A stretch of DNA of 64,000 nucleotides from GCF_054482595.1 NZ_CM137008.1; one strand, 5' to 3'. Counted from the first letter of the stretch, positions 11,011-15,566 are shown. Notes: generated from the sequence alone by a model not told the origin. Numbers and translations are program-made.

Positions 11011-14000
11011 TCAGAATTGCCACTTAATGCCAACCATTGCAGAGGTGTCATTATATCCCCTATCGGCAACCTGAACGCCCACATTCCCCCAGACATTCAG
11101 GTTGGCATTTAGCTGTCCTTCCACCCCGGTTTTTATCTCAGCAATATTTCGGGCTCCATCCTGAGTGACGGACACGCCATCCATACTGGTGCTGAAATCC
11201 TTACTGTTATGCAGCCAGTTCACTTCTACAAACGGCTGGAACTCGCGGGATTTACCGTCATCCATTTTATGGTGGCTCTTCAGCCAGGTTTTTACGCCAA
11301 GTCGGGTTTGAACATTGCCATCACCGTTGCTATGAACGAGGGTTCCGTTGCTTTCGCGGTGCTTATCGGCTTTGACTCCCATCCAGGTAACCTGTGCTTG
11401 CGGCTGAACATACCATTCATTACGCGTTCCCTGGCTGCCATTAAATTCAGCTAATTTGTGTTTGTATCCAGCTTCCAGTGAAGCGGTAAATCCTTTTGAT
11501 TTATAGGATTCACTTTGTAAGTCATCCCCTTTCACTGTGTTATCAAACCAGCTGTACTGCGCCCAACTGTCGAGATACGCGCCATTACGCGACTCGTCAT
11601 CGGCATACCAGGTGGCATAGAGGCCGGTGCTATATCCGTTCACACTCGCTTTTGCACGATAACCGGTTCGCGAGGAAATGGTTTTGCTGTCGCTGTTGCC
11701 ATATCCCGCCATGACCCCAACATGCCAGCTGTCGCTGCCGTTTTGGCTCCACTGCGCGACATCGCCTCCCAGTTGCAGAACATAGCGATTGCTTTGGGTT
11801 TTCAGCTGGCCGCTGCCATCACGCCATTTATTATGACCACCTTCATGGCGCATCCACATAGTGGTTTGTTTCTGCTCACCCGTCACCATGTCGGTATAGT
11901 ACGTATTACCCAGACGCTCATGCAGACGCGTGGTGAACATTGTATTCGCTGCTGCAAGGTTCGCAATGTAGCTACCCGCCTCCGGTCGCAGGTCATTATC
12001 CACATTCAGATCCGGACCCGGCGTAGGTGTCGGGTTAGGGTTCGGCTCTGGATTCGGGTTTGGCTCCGGATTCGGCATCGGGTCTGGCTCCGGCTGCAGT
12101 TCAGGAGAATCACTGCCGCTGGTCAGATACCAGTTACCACTATTTGCCCCTTGTCCACGCGCGAGAGTGTAGTCATACGCCCCCGCAACGATACGACCAG
12201 CCTGAACAAATTCGCCCTCAGACTTACCGTCTACATGGATAAGTTCGATACCGTTAAGGGTTTTCGCACCTGTACCGCCAGCGTTATTCACCGTAACGGC
12301 AGTCGTGCCGCTAGTATCGCCCTCGACAACCAATTTATCGGTTACTGAGTCATCGCCATTCAGTACCGTATTCATTACTAGTTGACCGTTATTACCGTGG
12401 TAGTTCCCCTTCACCACTAACACATTGCCAGCTTGCTGTCCTGACATTCCGGTCATCAGCGTACCGTTGTTGGTCAGATTGCCGCCCAGGGTGTAATTCA
12501 CAGACGCAGCCGCTCTTTTTTCAGTGCTATTATTCAACGCCAGGGTACCGTTGTTCTCAACGTTTGCGCTACCCAATCCCTGCGCATGACTTACCAGGAC
12601 ATTAGCCGAATTAGCAATGTTCACATTCGCCGTCAGGTTGCTGTTATCGCCCGCGATGTCCAGCGTGCCGCCCTGAATATTCAGCTCTCCGCTCCCCGTT
12701 AACGAACCGGTTGAAGTGCCCCCGTTGGTAACCGTCAGACTGCCGCCATTTAAGCTCAGCAGTGAATCGGCGCTGCCATTGAGCGTGCCCACGGTCTGGC
12801 TGTGACCATTCATATCCAGTTCAGTCTCTGCCGCCAGACGCAGTTCATGGGTATTACCCAACACGTTATCGTTATTCAACAAAAGCGTCCCACTGCGCAG
12901 ATCGGTAACACCGGTATAGTCGTTGTCTTTGTTAGAAAGCGATACGGTCTGACCCTTCTGGCTGCTGAATGCCAGGTCACCACTGCCGGTAATCTTTGCG
13001 CTGAGATCGGCGGCATTCTCGCTTTTACCGTTAGAGCTCAGCACCAGAGCATCGCTGTCGGTAGCGTGTAAATCAAGCTGGGTCAGGCCGTAACCGATAT
13101 ACAGACCGTCATTGTTTACCCCACTCGTCAGACGATAGTCGTAAGTGCCGACGGCCGCTTTTTGCCCATTCTGCTGAATATCACGTTGGGCGCTGCTGGA
13201 GAGGATTTGCCCATTTTTATCCTGCAATTGCAGATTGCCCGCATCGCCCAGAACTTCCGCACCTTGCGCATCAACCAGCTTAATGGCGCTGTTACCATCA
13301 TCGACTTCAGTGAGCGATAACGCAGAGTCAATATCACGAGATACTGAGCGGACAACGTCACTGTCAGAAACCTGAATCACACCCTCGCCGCGCAAATCCA
13401 GCGTTTTACTAACGTTGACCGTCCCTTCTGTCATCTGTGCACCTGCTGTCAGGGCACCAAAATCAACGGTTCCGCCGGAGAATCCCAAAGTGCTAATGGA
13501 GTGAGCGCCCTTACCCACTGTTACCTGGCTTCCCTGACCCGCAGTGATCCCGCCTCTCTGCAGAAACTCAGCATTCTTTTCCAGGTTAAATGTCGTGTTC
13601 TGAAACGCCAGTGAACCCTGGAACCAGTCTGTATAAGCAAACTCATCGAAGGAGAATTCGTGATTCCCCATGTTTATTTCAACAATACCTCTACCTTGAA
13701 GATCGTTATCAAATACCCAATCTTTATTGGCATTGATTTGCAGTTTGCCATCAACATCCAGGTCCGCACGGCCGATGTTCTTGTCTTCAGAAATAACCGC
13801 GACAGCACCAGAAGCGACATCAATATATCCGCTGAATGCATAGTTATTGCCGGTCAGTGCCACTGTCCCACTGTCGATACTTATTGTACCATTGCCGGAA
13901 ATCTTATTGGCAAAGGTCATGCTATCGTCAGCCTTCAGGTGTAATTTCCCGCGGTTGTTGATCTCTGCTGTACCTATATTTTTGGTGATCCCTAAAGCGC

Positions 14001-14994
14001 CATTTTGCTCAATTTTGACTTTACCACTAAAGGCAGAGTTATCACCGGTTAAGTAAGTCGTGCCATTGAGCGCATTGATATAGCCCAGGCCCTCGCTGCC
14101 ACTGACAATATCCGCGGAAATAGTCGCGTTTTTATCCGTGTGGTTTAAGGTGATTTTCTTATCGGATGTCTTTGCCCACACAAACTCAATTTTTTCGGCA
14201 TCAATAATCCCTGCAGCCTTCGCAGCACTTCCTTCCTGTGCATCTAACGCTAACTCAGAGTTGGTGCTTAAACTAATTTTCGGTGCGGATATTTTACCTC
14301 CATCTGATACGACTAATGTTGTATCAGAACGTTGGTCGTAATAACCCAGGCTAATATGTTCACGAGCATTAACTTCACCACCGTTATTAACCGACAGGAA
14401 CTGATTACCGCCATATCCGCCGTAAACGCCCATAAAGAAGGTCCCTGCATTTACCTGACTACCTTCGCCGCTTACATTCCCCTGCGTATAAGTCAGACGA
14501 CTGGTGCCCTTAACATGAATTTTGCCGCCATTGGAGACATTAAAATAGCCTTGATCATGTCTCATGCCTGAGTTTGACTCATACAAATCATCAGCATATA
14601 ACTCGCTGCCAGCATTGGAGACATTCAGGAACCCCGTACCTTTCAGCAAAAAGTTAAGCGGGCCATTGATTGTTACCTTTCCTCCGGTAATATCCAACCC
14701 ACCACCAGAAGCGAGAGTCAGACGCGGACGGGAAGTATCTGTCGTATTGATTACCAGATTGGCATTGTCAGTCACCGTAATACGGTAATCGATGCTCTGG
14801 TTCTCTTTGCCAAAATCAATAGTTTTATCCTGGTTTACGATGACATCATCGGCGAATACCAGAGATGAATATAAACTTATCGCGCTAATTAAAACAGCCC
14901 GGGACTTTTTTCCTTTTACTCTGCTCCCCAGCTCAGAGCAGACGCTCCAACAGTTACGGGACCTGTTCCACTTTAGCCGATATATTTTATTCAT
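11011..14994 (-). CDS. ehaA: AIDA-I/EhaA-type autotransporter adhesin, 1327 aa from the MNKIYRLKWN start (ORF extends to 15060)
   Basis: Extended signal peptide region MNKIYRLKWNRSRNCWSVCSELG; long Gly/Asn/Thr-rich beta-helical passenger; proline-rich PEPDPMPNPEPNPNPEPNPNPTPTPGPD linker; C-terminal beta-barrel ending ...VGIKWQF. The symbol is assigned by resemblance and length only. Confidence 0.75.
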   Translation of the reverse strand: MNKIYRLKWNRSRNCWSVCSELGSRVKGKKSRAVLISAISLYSSLVFADDVIVNQDKTIDFGKENQSIDYRITVTDNANLVINTTDTSRPRLTLASGGGLDITGGKVTINGPLNFLLKGTGFLNVSNAGSELYADDLYESNSGMRHDQGYFNVSNGGKIHVKGTSRLTYTQGNVSGEGSQVNAGTFFMGVYGGYGGNQFLSVNNGGEVNAREHISLGYYDQRSDTTLVVSDGGKISAPKISLSTNSELALDAQEGSAAKAAGIIDAEKIEFVWAKTSDKKITLNHTDKNATISADIVSGSEGLGYINALNGTTYLTGDNSAFSGKVKIEQNGALGITKNIGTAEINNRGKLHLKADDSMTFANKISGNGTISIDSGTVALTGNNYAFSGYIDVASGAVAVISEDKNIGRADLDVDGKLQINANKDWVFDNDLQGRGIVEINMGNHEFSFDEFAYTDWFQGSLAFQNTTFNLEKNAEFLQRGGITAGQGSQVTVGKGAHSISTLGFSGGTVDFGALTAGAQMTEGTVNVSKTLDLRGEGVIQVSDSDVVRSVSRDIDSALSLTEVDDGNSAIKLVDAQGAEVLGDAGNLQLQDKNGQILSSSAQRDIQQNGQKAAVGTYDYRLTSGVNNDGLYIGYGLTQLDLHATDSDALVLSSNGKSENAADLSAKITGSGDLAFSSQKGQTVSLSNKDNDYTGVTDLRSGTLLLNNDNVLGNTHELRLAAETELDMNGHSQTVGTLNGSADSLLSLNGGSLTVTNGGTSTGSLTGSGELNIQGGTLDIAGDNSNLTANVNIANSANVLVSHAQGLGSANVENNGTLALNNSTEKRAAASVNYTLGGNLTNNGTLMTGMSGQQAGNVLVVKGNYHGNNGQLVMNTVLNGDDSVTDKLVVEGDTSGTTAVTVNNAGGTGAKTLNGIELIHVDGKSEGEFVQAGRIVAGAYDYTLARGQGANSGNWYLTSGSDSPELQPEPDPMPNPEPNPNPEPNPNPTPTPGPDLNVDNDLRPEAGSYIANLAAANTMFTTRLHERLGNTYYTDMVTGEQKQTTMWMRHEGGHNKWRDGSGQLKTQSNRYVLQLGGDVAQWSQNGSDSWHVGVMAGYGNSDSKTISSRTGYRAKASVNGYSTGLYATWYADDESRNGAYLDSWAQYSWFDNTVKGDDLQSESYKSKGFTASLEAGYKHKLAEFNGSQGTRNEWYVQPQAQVTWMGVKADKHRESNGTLVHSNGDGNVQTRLGVKTWLKSHHKMDDGKSREFQPFVEVNWLHNSKDFSTSMDGVSVTQDGARNIAEIKTGVEGQLNANLNVWGNVGVQVADRGYNDTSAMVGIKWQF

Positions 14995-15566
14995 CACAAT
15001 CTCCAGCAATACATCCAAATAAAACCAAGATTGCATAAACAGCAACGCATTAAATGCCATTCTGGTTACTGTTCATCGCATATAAAAATTCAAAAATTTT
15101 GCATAGCATTGGCAACCACATATCTGAGTATGTAGTTCAGAGGGTAATAAAATAGCAAGTTATTACTTAAAACTTATTTTAAGTTAACACTCTTAACTTT
15201 ATCATTACATTCCTCCCAGTCTCTAATACCTGCGCATTATATGTATCCAGGAACTCAAATCAACTCAAAATATAAACAAAAGCAAGAGGAATACATTTAA
15301 TATACAGCCGATAAAAGCGGTAACTCTTATTAGGTATCAAAATATAAGAATCGTCTTATTAATAAATATATAACACTATAGGACTGAATCCATTCAGCTA
15401 ATACAAAATAAAATCGTTAATTAATAAAATATAAAATCATGAAGTGATACAAGAGGAATTGCAGGATATGACATGACAATCATATATAATATATGCATAA
15501 TTTTTTACAGCGAGTCAATGATTCCCGCGCCATATGCAGACATGGCGCGGTTTTATGCAAAAACAA

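What the first reader, a model, noticed from the sequence alone, without database searches (positions are those of the whole stretch)
11011..15566. EhaA-type autotransporter with AT-rich upstream region inserted between pdeL and betT
A 1327-aa AIDA-I-like autotransporter (MNKIYRLKWN extended signal peptide, beta-helical passenger, beta-barrel) lies between pdeL and betT, which I recall as adjacent in K-12. Its upstream 500 bp (15061-15566) is very AT-rich with no ORF, as expected for an H-NS-repressed promoter. A 10-bp-stem hairpin with T-rich flanks at 10958-10998 lies at its 3' end.
Basis: partly seen in the sequence, partly recalled or inferred. Interest (0 to 1): 0.45.

Follow-up and report, generated by a model that had tools for sequence, protein, structure and literature searches.

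The report
Known E. coli adhesin gene ehaA
This is an intact copy of ehaA, a surface adhesin gene of E. coli that was described in 2008 and is routinely annotated, so the finding is correct but ordinary; the one fresh point is that ehaA appears to sit behind the same promoter that drives the neighbouring gene pdeL in K-12.

Summary
Window 11011-14994 (minus strand) is an intact 1327-aa classical autotransporter. It has an extended signal peptide, an autochaperone domain and a C-terminal beta-barrel. It lies between pdeL and betT, behind 572 nt of 31% G+C DNA, and a real 11-bp hairpin follows it.

It is ehaA. The window is 100% identical to E. coli XH990, where RefSeq names the gene "autotransporter adhesin EhaA". 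The protein is 98% identical to O157:H7 EhaA. The segment absent from K-12-type strains is 4642 bp, which matches the published O-island 15 (4643 bp, single gene ehaA). About 26% of complete E. coli genomes carry it at this locus. It is already known.

"Inserted" is probably the wrong direction:
- The segment replaces 820 bp of K-12 DNA.
- It has genome-average G+C and no mobility marks.
- The same position is occupied in E. whittamii (intact gene) and E. albertii (decayed gene).
- It is tightly linked to a deeply diverged 5' third of pdeL.

The AT-rich upstream region is a diverged homologue of the K-12 pdeL promoter region, with an identical Cra-box-like palindrome and the same core promoter. 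I infer, without testing, that ehaA is transcribed from a pdeL-type promoter that is H-NS-silenced and Cra-dependent, possibly with read-through into pdeL.

The parts
11011..14994 (-). ehaA coding sequence (1327 aa plus stop), a classical type Va autotransporter adhesin
   Evidence: ORF. Pfam ESPR, AC_1 and Autotransporter domains. RefSeq CDS 'autotransporter adhesin EhaA' in the 100%-identical genome NZ_CP019359. 98% aa identity to O157:H7 EhaA. dN/dS 0.12-0.13.
14851..14994 (-). Extended signal peptide, aa 1-48; the cleavage site after VFA(48) is inferred
   Evidence: Pfam PF13018 ESPR covers aa 1-38, E 7.4e-10. The cleavage site was read from the sequence and not tested.
12115..14850 (-). 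Passenger domain, aa 49-960, probably a beta-helix
   Evidence: aa 734-966 match the solved IcsA passenger (5ke1, E 1.6e-27; 3ml3, E 9e-29). A single-sequence AlphaFold model is almost entirely short beta-strands but has low confidence (pLDDT 52.8). The best Foldseek matches are Ag43 and TibA beta-helices at low TM-scores.
12163..12480 (-). Autochaperone domain, aa 839-944
   Evidence: Pfam PF18883 AC_1, E 3.5e-28.
12010..12114 (-). Proline-rich (PEPNPNP) linker, aa 961-995
   Evidence: Visible in the translation. Low-complexity Pfam match to Trypan_PARP below its cut-off.
11080..11859 (-). Beta-barrel translocator domain, aa 1046-1305
   Evidence: Pfam PF03797, E 2.3e-46. TIGR01414 scores 415.6 bits against a cut-off of 16. 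The AIDA-I beta-domain structure 4mee matches aa 1001-1327 at E 4.9e-92.
10957..10988 (-). Conserved stem-loop 23 nt after the ehaA stop; a possible weak or partial terminator between ehaA and pdeL
   Evidence: The stem is conserved in O157, E. whittamii and E. albertii while the loop varies.
10870..11010 (-). 141-nt ehaA-pdeL spacer with no sigma-70-like promoter match
   Evidence: Promoter scan. 87% mean column identity across four Escherichia sequences.
15236..15263 (-). Candidate core promoter TTGATT-16 nt-TATAAT, shared with the K-12 pdeL upstream region; implies a 5' UTR of about 235 nt
   Evidence: 10 of 12 consensus match. The same element, TTGATC-16-TATAAT, is at L002 2531..2504 in the K-12 type. 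The block CATATAATGCGC is invariant in all five aligned sequences and is also kept in E. albertii.
15382..15398 (-). Cra-box-like palindrome GCTGAATGGATTCAGTC, identical to the one in the K-12 pdeL promoter region
   Evidence: A unique exact match in the window, with 0.03 expected. CTGAA-N4-TTCAG occurs once in the window and once in the K-12 locus. Invariant in the five-way alignment. A Cra site in the pdeL promoter is reported in bioRxiv 10.1101/2021.10.01.462762.
15142..15440 (-). AT-rich stretch colinear and homologous with the K-12-type pdeL regulatory region (L002 2423-2720)
   Evidence: Chained local alignment score 32, against 18.9 +/- 2.5 (maximum 28) in 300 dinucleotide-preserving shuffles. 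Alignments.
15525..15550 (-). betT terminator hairpin, shared by both haplotypes; it marks the right-hand end of the variable segment
   Evidence: Homology to the K-12 type resumes at 15527.
10885..15526 (.). Segment with no K-12-type counterpart detectable by BLAST (4642 bp); equivalent to O-island 15
   Evidence: BLAST breakpoints. OI-15 is reported as 4643 bp with the single ORF ehaA/z0402 (PMC8565820).
10500..10869 (-). 5' third of pdeL (codons 1-123) belonging to the ehaA-linked haplotype
   Evidence: 11-23 mismatches per full 100-nt block from 10500 to 10799 against the K-12 type, against 0-2 per block from 9700 to 10499. Identity across E. coli genomes is bimodal: >=95% in 1394 genomes and 80-90% in 3761. 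dS is 0.71 here, against 3 differences in the remaining 720 nt.

Best explanation
The feature is ehaA, the already characterised AIDA-I-type (type Va) autotransporter adhesin of E. coli. It lies in the chromosomal segment known from O157:H7 as O-island 15, here in a non-O157 strain.

How the protein works follows from established knowledge of the family. The extended signal peptide sends it through Sec. The C-terminal beta-barrel is inserted into the outer membrane. The passenger, probably a beta-helix, is threaded to the cell surface with help from its autochaperone domain. In published work on the O157 allele the passenger causes cell aggregation, biofilm formation and adhesion to bovine rectal epithelial cells.

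It is one state of an old two-state locus. Its AT-rich leader is the counterpart of the K-12 pdeL promoter region, with the same Cra-box-like palindrome and the same -35/-10 promoter. ehaA is therefore most likely transcribed from a pdeL-type promoter that is silenced by H-NS and activated through Cra. pdeL, 141 nt downstream behind a non-canonical hairpin, may receive read-through transcription.
For: Identity:
- 100% nucleotide identity to E. coli XH990, where the CDS is annotated as ehaA.
- 1301/1327 aa identical to O157:H7 EhaA, with no gaps.
- Same pdeL-betT position in 1386-1388 of 5426 genomes.
- The variable segment is 4642 bp, against 4643 bp published for OI-15.

Architecture: ESPR, AC_1 and Autotransporter domains, TIGR01414, and matches to the solved AIDA-I and IcsA structures.

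Selective constraint: dN/dS 0.12-0.13.

Published function: PMC8565820 and PMC9289746.

Old resident rather than mobile island:
- 49.6% G+C.
- No flanking repeats or tRNA.
- An intact orthologue with the same neighbours in E. whittamii, and a decayed copy in E. albertii.

Promoter homology:
- An invariant 17-nt palindrome and an invariant promoter block in five sequences from both haplotypes.
- Shuffle test on the chained alignment.
- The palindrome is unique in the window and in the K-12 locus.
- The same promoter is picked out independently in both haplotypes.
- K-12 pdeL promoter biology is described in bioRxiv 10.1101/2021.10.01.462762.
Against: Nothing argues against the identification.

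The regulatory part has these weaknesses:
- No transcript data were available, and the K-12 pdeL transcription start site could not be retrieved. The promoter assignment rests on consensus match and conservation only.
- The Cra-like site lies about 160 nt upstream of the candidate start, which is far for a classical activator.
- The bases just upstream of the Cra box are not conserved. That is where I guessed the K-12 Cra-dependent PdeL box to be.
- The K-12 distal region, where the Cra-independent PdeL box would be if my guess is right, has no counterpart here. PdeL autoregulation may therefore not apply.
- The conserved hairpin could terminate efficiently and uncouple pdeL from ehaA.
- The beta-helix fold of aa 49-730 is only weakly supported.
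Confidence: 0.9

Rival explanations
1. A horizontally acquired accessory island carrying ehaA and its own AT-rich, H-NS-silenced promoter was inserted between two genes that were adjacent in the ancestor, as they are in K-12.
For: The gene is absent from about 74% of complete E. coli genomes, including K-12-type strains. It is listed in the literature as an O-island. The upstream DNA has 30% G+C.
Against: - It is a replacement of 820 bp, not an addition.
- ehaA has genome-average G+C.
- There is no integrase, IS element, tRNA or flanking repeat.
- The same arrangement is found in E. whittamii and E. albertii, whose PdeL N-termini are of the ehaA-linked type.
- The upstream DNA shares the Cra-like palindrome and the core promoter with the K-12 pdeL region.
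- The K-12-type spacer holds no trace of ehaA. That does not argue for an insertion either.
Confidence: 0.08
2. ehaA is intact here but is a silent, decaying relic that does nothing for the cell. The conserved upstream elements exist only to serve pdeL.
For: The copy in the E. albertii type strain has decayed to fragments, yet the promoter block, the hairpin and pdeL are all kept. Some E. coli carry an IS1 insertion in ehaA (H66). Published phenotypes come mainly from overexpression.
Against: Full-length copies at 95-100% identity occur in about 1388 genomes. dN/dS is 0.12-0.13 both within E. coli and against E. whittamii, which indicates purifying selection on the protein. A deletion mutant adhered less well in pig ileal loops, according to the literature.
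Confidence: 0.07
3. The similarity between the ehaA leader and the K-12 pdeL promoter region is coincidental or convergent, for example two independent Cra sites in AT-rich DNA. ehaA has its own unrelated promoter, and pdeL in ehaA-carrying strains has a separate promoter inside the 3' end of ehaA or in the spacer.
For: Outside the two blocks the regions are only about 50-60% identical and are AT-rich, so alignments there are weak. One shuffle out of 300 reached the score of the single best block. A 9-of-12 promoter-like site exists inside ehaA at 11966..11939.
Against: There are two exact blocks, of 17 nt and 12 nt. They are in the same order, at similar spacing (about 150 against 158 nt), and at the same position relative to the betT terminator. 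They are invariant across five sequences. The chained alignment score exceeds all 300 shuffles. The 17-mer has 0.03 expected matches in 64 kb.
Confidence: 0.1

Closest known systems
EhaA (Z0402) of E. coli O157:H7 EDL933, O-island 15 (Wells et al. 2008, Environ Microbiol 10:589; cited through PMC8565820 and PMC9289746)
   Same: The same gene. Both are 1327 aa, with 98% aa identity and no gaps. Both lie between pdeL (yahA) and betT. The island length matches (4642 against 4643 bp) and the domain order is the same.
   Different: There are 26 amino-acid substitutions, 22 of them in aa 84-570 of the passenger. The host here is a urinary isolate whose neighbouring yahC-yahB-pdeL DNA is nearly identical to a K-12-type strain, not EHEC.
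AIDA-I, the diffuse-adherence autotransporter adhesin (PDB 4mee; NCBIfam NF033176)
   Same: The C-terminal 327 aa (autochaperone end, linker and barrel) are clearly homologous, E 4.9e-92. The overall type Va architecture is the same.
   Different: The whole protein scores 340 bits against a family cut-off of 1200. The passenger is unrelated at sequence level. No adjacent glycosyltransferase gene (aah-like) is present.
Group 8 autotransporter adhesins: IcsA, MisL, ShdA, YfaL/EhaC, UpaE (classification in PMC9289746)
   Same: Shared C-terminal passenger, autochaperone and barrel regions. IcsA structures 5ke1 and 3ml3 match aa 734-966, and the MisL, ShdA and YfaL models match the C-terminal third. 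The review places EhaA in this group.
   Different: All of these family models score far below their cut-offs: MisL 511 against 1297, ShdA 253 against 2249, YfaL 232 against 1459. The N-terminal 700 aa of the passenger have no detectable sequence relatives among solved structures.
The K-12 pdeL promoter region, controlled by Cra, PdeL and H-NS (Reinders et al., bioRxiv 10.1101/2021.10.01.462762)
   Same: An identical 17-nt Cra-box-like palindrome, the same -35/-10 promoter with the invariant CATATAATGCGC block, the same position after the betT terminator, and similar AT-richness.
   Different: Here the first gene downstream is ehaA rather than pdeL. About 250 bp of distal K-12 sequence, including yahV, is missing. 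Sequence outside the two blocks is only about 50-60% identical. Binding by Cra, PdeL or H-NS was not tested.

Membership tests
Classical (type Va) autotransporter | N-terminal Sec signal peptide, here of the extended ESPR type | tested here: met
   Pfam PF13018 covers aa 1-38, E 7.4e-10, 39.6 bits against a cut-off of 25.
Classical (type Va) autotransporter | C-terminal beta-barrel translocator domain on the same polypeptide | tested here: met
   PF03797 scores 159 bits against a cut-off of 26. TIGR01414 scores 415.6 bits against 16. PDB 4mee matches at E 4.9e-92 and BrkA 3qq2 at E 3e-5.
Classical (type Va) autotransporter | Autochaperone region at the C-terminal end of the passenger | tested here: met
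   PF18883 AC_1 covers aa 839-944, 98.3 bits against a cut-off of 27.1. The IcsA autochaperone structure 3ml3 matches at E 9e-29.
Classical (type Va) autotransporter | Right-handed beta-helical passenger | tested here: inconclusive
   aa 734-966 match the IcsA passenger structure. For aa 49-997 the single-sequence AlphaFold model is almost entirely short strands, but its mean pLDDT is 52.8. The top Foldseek matches are Ag43 (E 7e-5) and TibA, with TM-scores of 0.37 or lower. aa 54-760 have no sequence match in the PDB.
Classical (type Va) autotransporter | Surface exposure of the passenger | not testable with these tools
   Reported for the O157 allele in the literature.
EhaA orthologue (OI-15 gene z0402) | Full-length, near-identical sequence to O157:H7 EhaA | tested here: met
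   1301/1327 aa identical with 0 gaps. RefSeq names the identical CDS 'autotransporter adhesin EhaA'.
EhaA orthologue (OI-15 gene z0402) | Chromosomal position between pdeL (yahA) and betT, in a ~4.6-kb segment absent from K-12 | tested here: met
   The size agrees with PMC8565820.
EhaA orthologue (OI-15 gene z0402) | Mediates aggregation, biofilm formation and adhesion | not testable with these tools
   Known only from the literature on the O157 allele.
AIDA-I proper, MisL, ShdA, YfaL/EhaC and ECSE_1600 families (NCBIfam) | Whole-protein score above the curated family cut-off | tested here: not met
   Scores against cut-offs: 340 against 1200, 511 against 1297, 252.6 against 2249, 232.4 against 1459, and 761.8 against 2335. 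The matches are confined to the C-terminal third.
Horizontally acquired mobile genomic island | Deviant base composition, integrase or IS element, tRNA or repeat-flanked junctions | tested here: not met
   ehaA has 49.6% G+C against 49.0% for the window. No tRNA was found. No boundary repeats were found. No mobility gene is annotated nearby.
Intrinsic (Rho-independent) terminator, for the 10957-10988 hairpin | G+C-rich stem followed immediately by a U-tract on the transcribed strand | tested here: not met
   The stem is present. On the minus strand the tail is GUGUCAUUUUCU, and the scan flags the site only on the plus strand. It may still be a weak terminator or an RNA-stabilising element.
H-NS-silenced promoter | AT-rich, curved DNA that is bound by H-NS and derepressed in an hns mutant | not testable with these tools
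   AT-richness is met, at 30% G+C. The homologous K-12 region is reported to be H-NS-repressed. No binding or expression data for ehaA were found.
Cra (FruR) regulon target | Cra operator palindrome (TGAA-N4-TTCA core) upstream of the gene, bound by Cra | tested here: inconclusive
   The sequence criterion is met. GCTGAATGGATTCAGTC is identical to the only such palindrome in the K-12 pdeL regulatory region. Binding was not tested, and I could not retrieve the published coordinates of the K-12 site.

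The most novel reading that the evidence does not exclude
In roughly a quarter of E. coli strains, and in E. whittamii, the Cra- and H-NS-controlled promoter that forms the bistable c-di-GMP 'digitiser' switch in K-12 first transcribes the adhesin gene ehaA and reaches pdeL only by read-through of a leaky hairpin. Production of a biofilm and aggregation adhesin would then be wired to the same metabolic and c-di-GMP decision as the phosphodiesterase. On this reading the K-12 arrangement studied so far is a derived or imported haplotype. It has lost ehaA and carries a different PdeL N-terminus and different distal regulatory DNA.
Probability: 0.3. Interest if true: 0.45.

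Novelty: already known. Interest (0 to 1): 0.13.

Why it matters
As submitted, the finding has no discovery value. ehaA has been published, named and annotated, and it is routinely screened for in STEC virulence typing.

A modest side value lies in the locus structure. In the ehaA-carrying quarter of E. coli, the pdeL regulatory region that has been dissected in K-12 lies 4.1 kb further from pdeL, with an adhesin gene in between, and it is linked to a PdeL variant with a diverged N-terminus. Two consequences follow:
- Conclusions about pdeL autoregulation and c-di-GMP bistability drawn from K-12 may not carry over to EHEC and other ehaA-positive strains.
- It suggests a cheap, testable hypothesis for how ehaA is regulated (Cra and H-NS). 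I found no account of this in the searchable literature.

Tried and rejected
- Mobile-island signatures. Scans for flanking direct or inverted repeats, tRNA genes and compositional deviation were all negative.
- Known RNA families. None matched in 10700-15700, even at E <= 1.
- Remnants of the ehaA ORF in the K-12-type and UPEC 536 spacers. tblastn and sensitive blastn found nothing, so a simple recent deletion scar is not visible.
- A separate pdeL promoter in the 141-nt spacer. There was no sigma-70-like match.
- A PdeL box upstream of ehaA. I guessed that the K-12 PdeL box is the palindrome TCATTTGAAATGA (this is my guess, not a published sequence). It has no match near ehaA, so I make no claim about PdeL binding.
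- Co-variation of the PdeL DNA-binding domain with its promoter. I rejected this idea. The HTH region (aa 29-75) differs at only two positions (E38Q, Y64F); the differences cluster in aa 1-24 and 84-104.
- Structure of the passenger from a single sequence. Confidence was low, so I used it only as weak support. Homologues from other genera are paralogues of very different length, so I did not build a deeper alignment.
- Literature. Wells 2008, Reinders 2016, Povolotsky & Hengge 2016 and Shimada 2011 are not held. No held paper combines ehaA with pdeL or yahA, or links it to c-di-GMP control, in a relevant way.

Full report
**1. The observation**

The minus strand carries one long open frame, 11011..15060. 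Three things favour that start:
- GGAG lies 6 nt upstream (sequence).
- The Pfam extended-signal-peptide model aligns from residue 1.
- RefSeq uses the same start in a genome identical to the window.

Pfam finds ESPR (aa 1-38), the type 1 autochaperone domain (aa 839-944) and the autotransporter beta-domain (aa 1046-1305), all well above their cut-offs.

The flanking genes are pdeL (9781-10869, LuxR-type HTH plus EAL domain) and betT (15567-17600, BCCT transporter), both on the minus strand.

The 506 nt from 15061 to 15566 have 30.2% G+C, against 49.0% for the window. That is the lowest 1% of windows of this size. The region holds only chance ORFs of 34 aa or less and matches no Rfam family.

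The hairpin exists at 10957-10988. It has an 11-bp perfect stem and a 10-nt loop, and a 51-nt piece folds at -18.7 kcal/mol with z = -2.4.

**2. What it is**

A megablast of window 9700-17700 against 5426 complete E. coli genomes gives a 100% match to strain XH990 (a urine isolate from China). There the CDS is annotated "ehaA: autotransporter adhesin EhaA". The protein is 1301/1327 identical, without gaps, to EhaA of an O157:H7 strain.

K-12-type genomes align only up to window 10884 and again from 15527. The 4642 bp in between correspond to 820 bp of unrelated K-12-type sequence. A review of O157:H7 O-islands gives OI-15 as 4643 bp with a single ORF, ehaA (z0402). It summarises the experimental work:
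- Overexpression causes aggregation and biofilm formation.
- It mediates adhesion to bovine terminal-rectum epithelial cells.
- A deletion mutant adheres less well in pig ileal loops (PMC8565820).

A classification review places EhaA among the Group 8 adhesins, with IcsA, MisL, ShdA, YfaL and UpaE (PMC9289746). This agrees with my results. The C-terminal third matches the solved AIDA-I and IcsA fragments and the MisL, ShdA, AIDA-I and YfaL models. All of those family models score far below their curated cut-offs. The protein is therefore a relative of those families and not a member of any of them.

The gene is under purifying selection, with dN/dS of 0.13 against O157 and 0.12 against E. whittamii.

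ehaA is present at 80% coverage or more in 1388 of 5426 genomes. These include O157:H7, O111:H8, O103:H2, O104:H4 and O145, as well as isolates from many other hosts and sources. It is a known, common accessory gene.

**3. How it works**

The secretion mechanism follows from established knowledge of type Va autotransporters and was not tested here:
- Sec-dependent export, slowed by the ESPR.
- Barrel insertion into the outer membrane.
- C-to-N threading of the passenger, with the autochaperone domain nucleating folding.
- A proline-rich spacer (aa 961-995) holding the passenger away from the barrel.

The beta-helix fold is well supported only for aa 734-966, which match the IcsA passenger structure. 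For the rest, a single-sequence AlphaFold model is almost entirely short strands, but its mean pLDDT is 52.8. The best Foldseek matches are the Ag43 and TibA beta-helices at low TM-scores. I count that as weak support only.

**4.

(a) It is a replacement, not an insertion, and nothing marks it as mobile.
- ehaA has genome-average G+C.
- There are no flanking repeats, no tRNA and no integrase or IS element nearby.

(b) The difference from the K-12 type does not stop at the published island border.
- The window is almost identical to a K-12-type strain from yahC through pdeL codon ~123, with 0-2 mismatches per 100 nt between 9700 and 10499.
- It then shows 11-23 mismatches per 100 nt up to the pdeL start.
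- Across E. coli genomes this 370-nt piece is sharply bimodal: >=95% identical in 1394 genomes, 80-90% in 3761, and only 3 in between.
- The count of 1394 nearly equals the 1388 genomes that carry ehaA.
- Synonymous divergence between the two pdeL 5' ends is 0.71. That is about twice the ehaA divergence between E. coli and E. whittamii (0.32). The remaining 720 nt of pdeL differ at 3 positions.

(c) Other Escherichia species have the ehaA state.
- E. whittamii has an intact ehaA (92% aa identity) followed by pdeL, yahB and yahC.
- The E. albertii type strain has ehaA broken into fragments but keeps the promoter block, the hairpin and pdeL.
- Their PdeL N-termini are of the ehaA-linked type.

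The K-12-type spacer contains no ehaA remnant. Together these results point to an old dimorphism, or to replacement in the K-12-type lineage, rather than a recent gain of ehaA.

**5. The AT-rich leader**

I aligned the ehaA leader from the window, O157 and E. whittamii with the pdeL leader from a K-12-type strain and from UPEC 536. In otherwise poorly conserved AT-rich DNA there are two invariant blocks.

- The first is GCTGAATGGATTCAGTC (window 15382-15398). A CTGAA-N4-TTCAG palindrome occurs exactly once in the 64-kb window and exactly once in the K-12-type locus, at equivalent places. It fits the Cra operator core. A Cra site close to the pdeL promoter, overlapping a PdeL site, is reported for K-12 (bioRxiv 10.1101/2021.10.01.462762).
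- The second is AGTTGAT.TG ... CATATAATGCGC. This is a TTGAT(T/C)-16 nt-TATAAT promoter. The consensus scan picks it out independently in both haplotypes (window 15263..15236; L002 2531..2504). It is also retained in E. albertii.

A chained local alignment of the two regions scores 32, against 18.9 +/- 2.5 (maximum 28) in 300 dinucleotide-preserving shuffles.

The ehaA leader is therefore a diverged homologue of the pdeL regulatory region. In K-12 that region is silenced by H-NS and activated by Cra and PdeL.

My inference is that ehaA is expressed from this shared promoter, with a 5' UTR of about 235 nt. pdeL lies 141 nt downstream, with no promoter-like site in the spacer. The hairpin between them lacks an adjacent U-tract on the transcribed strand. 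pdeL may therefore be served by read-through.

The limits of this inference:
- There are no transcript data.
- I could not retrieve the published K-12 start site or the PdeL-box sequences.
- The DNA immediately upstream of the Cra box, and the distal ~250 bp of the K-12 region including yahV, have no counterpart here. PdeL autoregulation may differ.
- The PdeL HTH itself differs at only two residues between the haplotypes.

**6. Comparison with what is known, and verdict**

The finding is EhaA of O-island 15, which is already known. I found no held paper that connects ehaA with pdeL or yahA, or with c-di-GMP control, or that addresses its control by H-NS. The promoter homology and the linked pdeL haplotype may therefore be unreported. 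They are incremental points and rest on sequence comparison alone.

Interest in the finding as submitted is low.

Noticed in passing
window 10500-10869 (pdeL codons 1-123): pdeL has two discrete 5' haplotypes in E. coli, about 17% apart at nucleotide level (dS 0.71). They are almost perfectly linked to the presence or absence of ehaA, and the breakpoint is sharp, near codon 123. RefSeq names the two forms differently: 'EAL domain-containing protein' against 'DNA-binding transcriptional activator/c-di-GMP phosphodiesterase PdeL'.
   Followed up: yes
L002 2665-2739 and about 2760-3004 (K-12-type spacer): The small gene yahV and about 250 bp of distal pdeL regulatory DNA exist only in the K-12-type haplotype. 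The 3' end of yahV overlaps the Cra-box-like palindrome.
   Followed up: partly
L004 (JAIJJM010000200.1, labelled 'MAG: Collinsella sp.'): This 5.1-kb contig is 99.5% identical to window 10460-15560 (E. coli ehaA plus the start of pdeL). It is almost certainly an E. coli contig that was mis-binned into an actinobacterial MAG.
   Followed up: partly
L021 97-1040 (E. albertii NBRC 107761): ehaA is reduced to three fragments with large internal deletions. The upstream promoter block, the post-ehaA hairpin (here a 13-bp stem, z = -5.7) and pdeL are all conserved.
   Followed up: partly
L005 5401-5460 (E. whittamii): Homology to the window starts only 26 nt inside the 3' end of betT, and the betT terminator hairpin is kept. 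The genes further upstream are not bet genes, so the bet operon is not next to ehaA in this species.
   Followed up: no
window 14995-15060: An in-frame ATG at 15060 would add 22 residues (MAFNALLFMQSWFYLDVLLEIV) ahead of the ESPR, and the frame is also open in E. whittamii. It is probably not used, since the Shine-Dalgarno sequence and the ESPR alignment both favour 14994.
   Followed up: partly
window 22560-27502 and 37575-41828: The window holds two further adhesin loci. One is the invertase-controlled ipbA-hyxR-hyxA-hyxB cluster (hyxB is annotated as an outer membrane autotransporter). The other is the inverse autotransporter fdeC. The lowest-G+C stretch of the whole window (24%, within 21551-22677) lies just upstream of ipbA.
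   Followed up: no
L003 1-1040 (O157:H7 strain NE92): yahB and yahC, next to pdeL, are annotated as frameshifted pseudogenes in this O157:H7 genome. They are intact in the window.
   Followed up: no
hit H52 (O157:H7 strain PV15-279, NZ_AP018488.1): This genome matches only 94 nt of the ehaA-type pdeL 5' end, and its PdeL carries the K-12-type product name. It may be a recombinant between the two haplotypes.
   Followed up: no
hit H66 (E. coli EC12, NZ_CP060933.1): ehaA is interrupted by an IS1 element in this strain, an example of sporadic inactivation.
   Followed up: no
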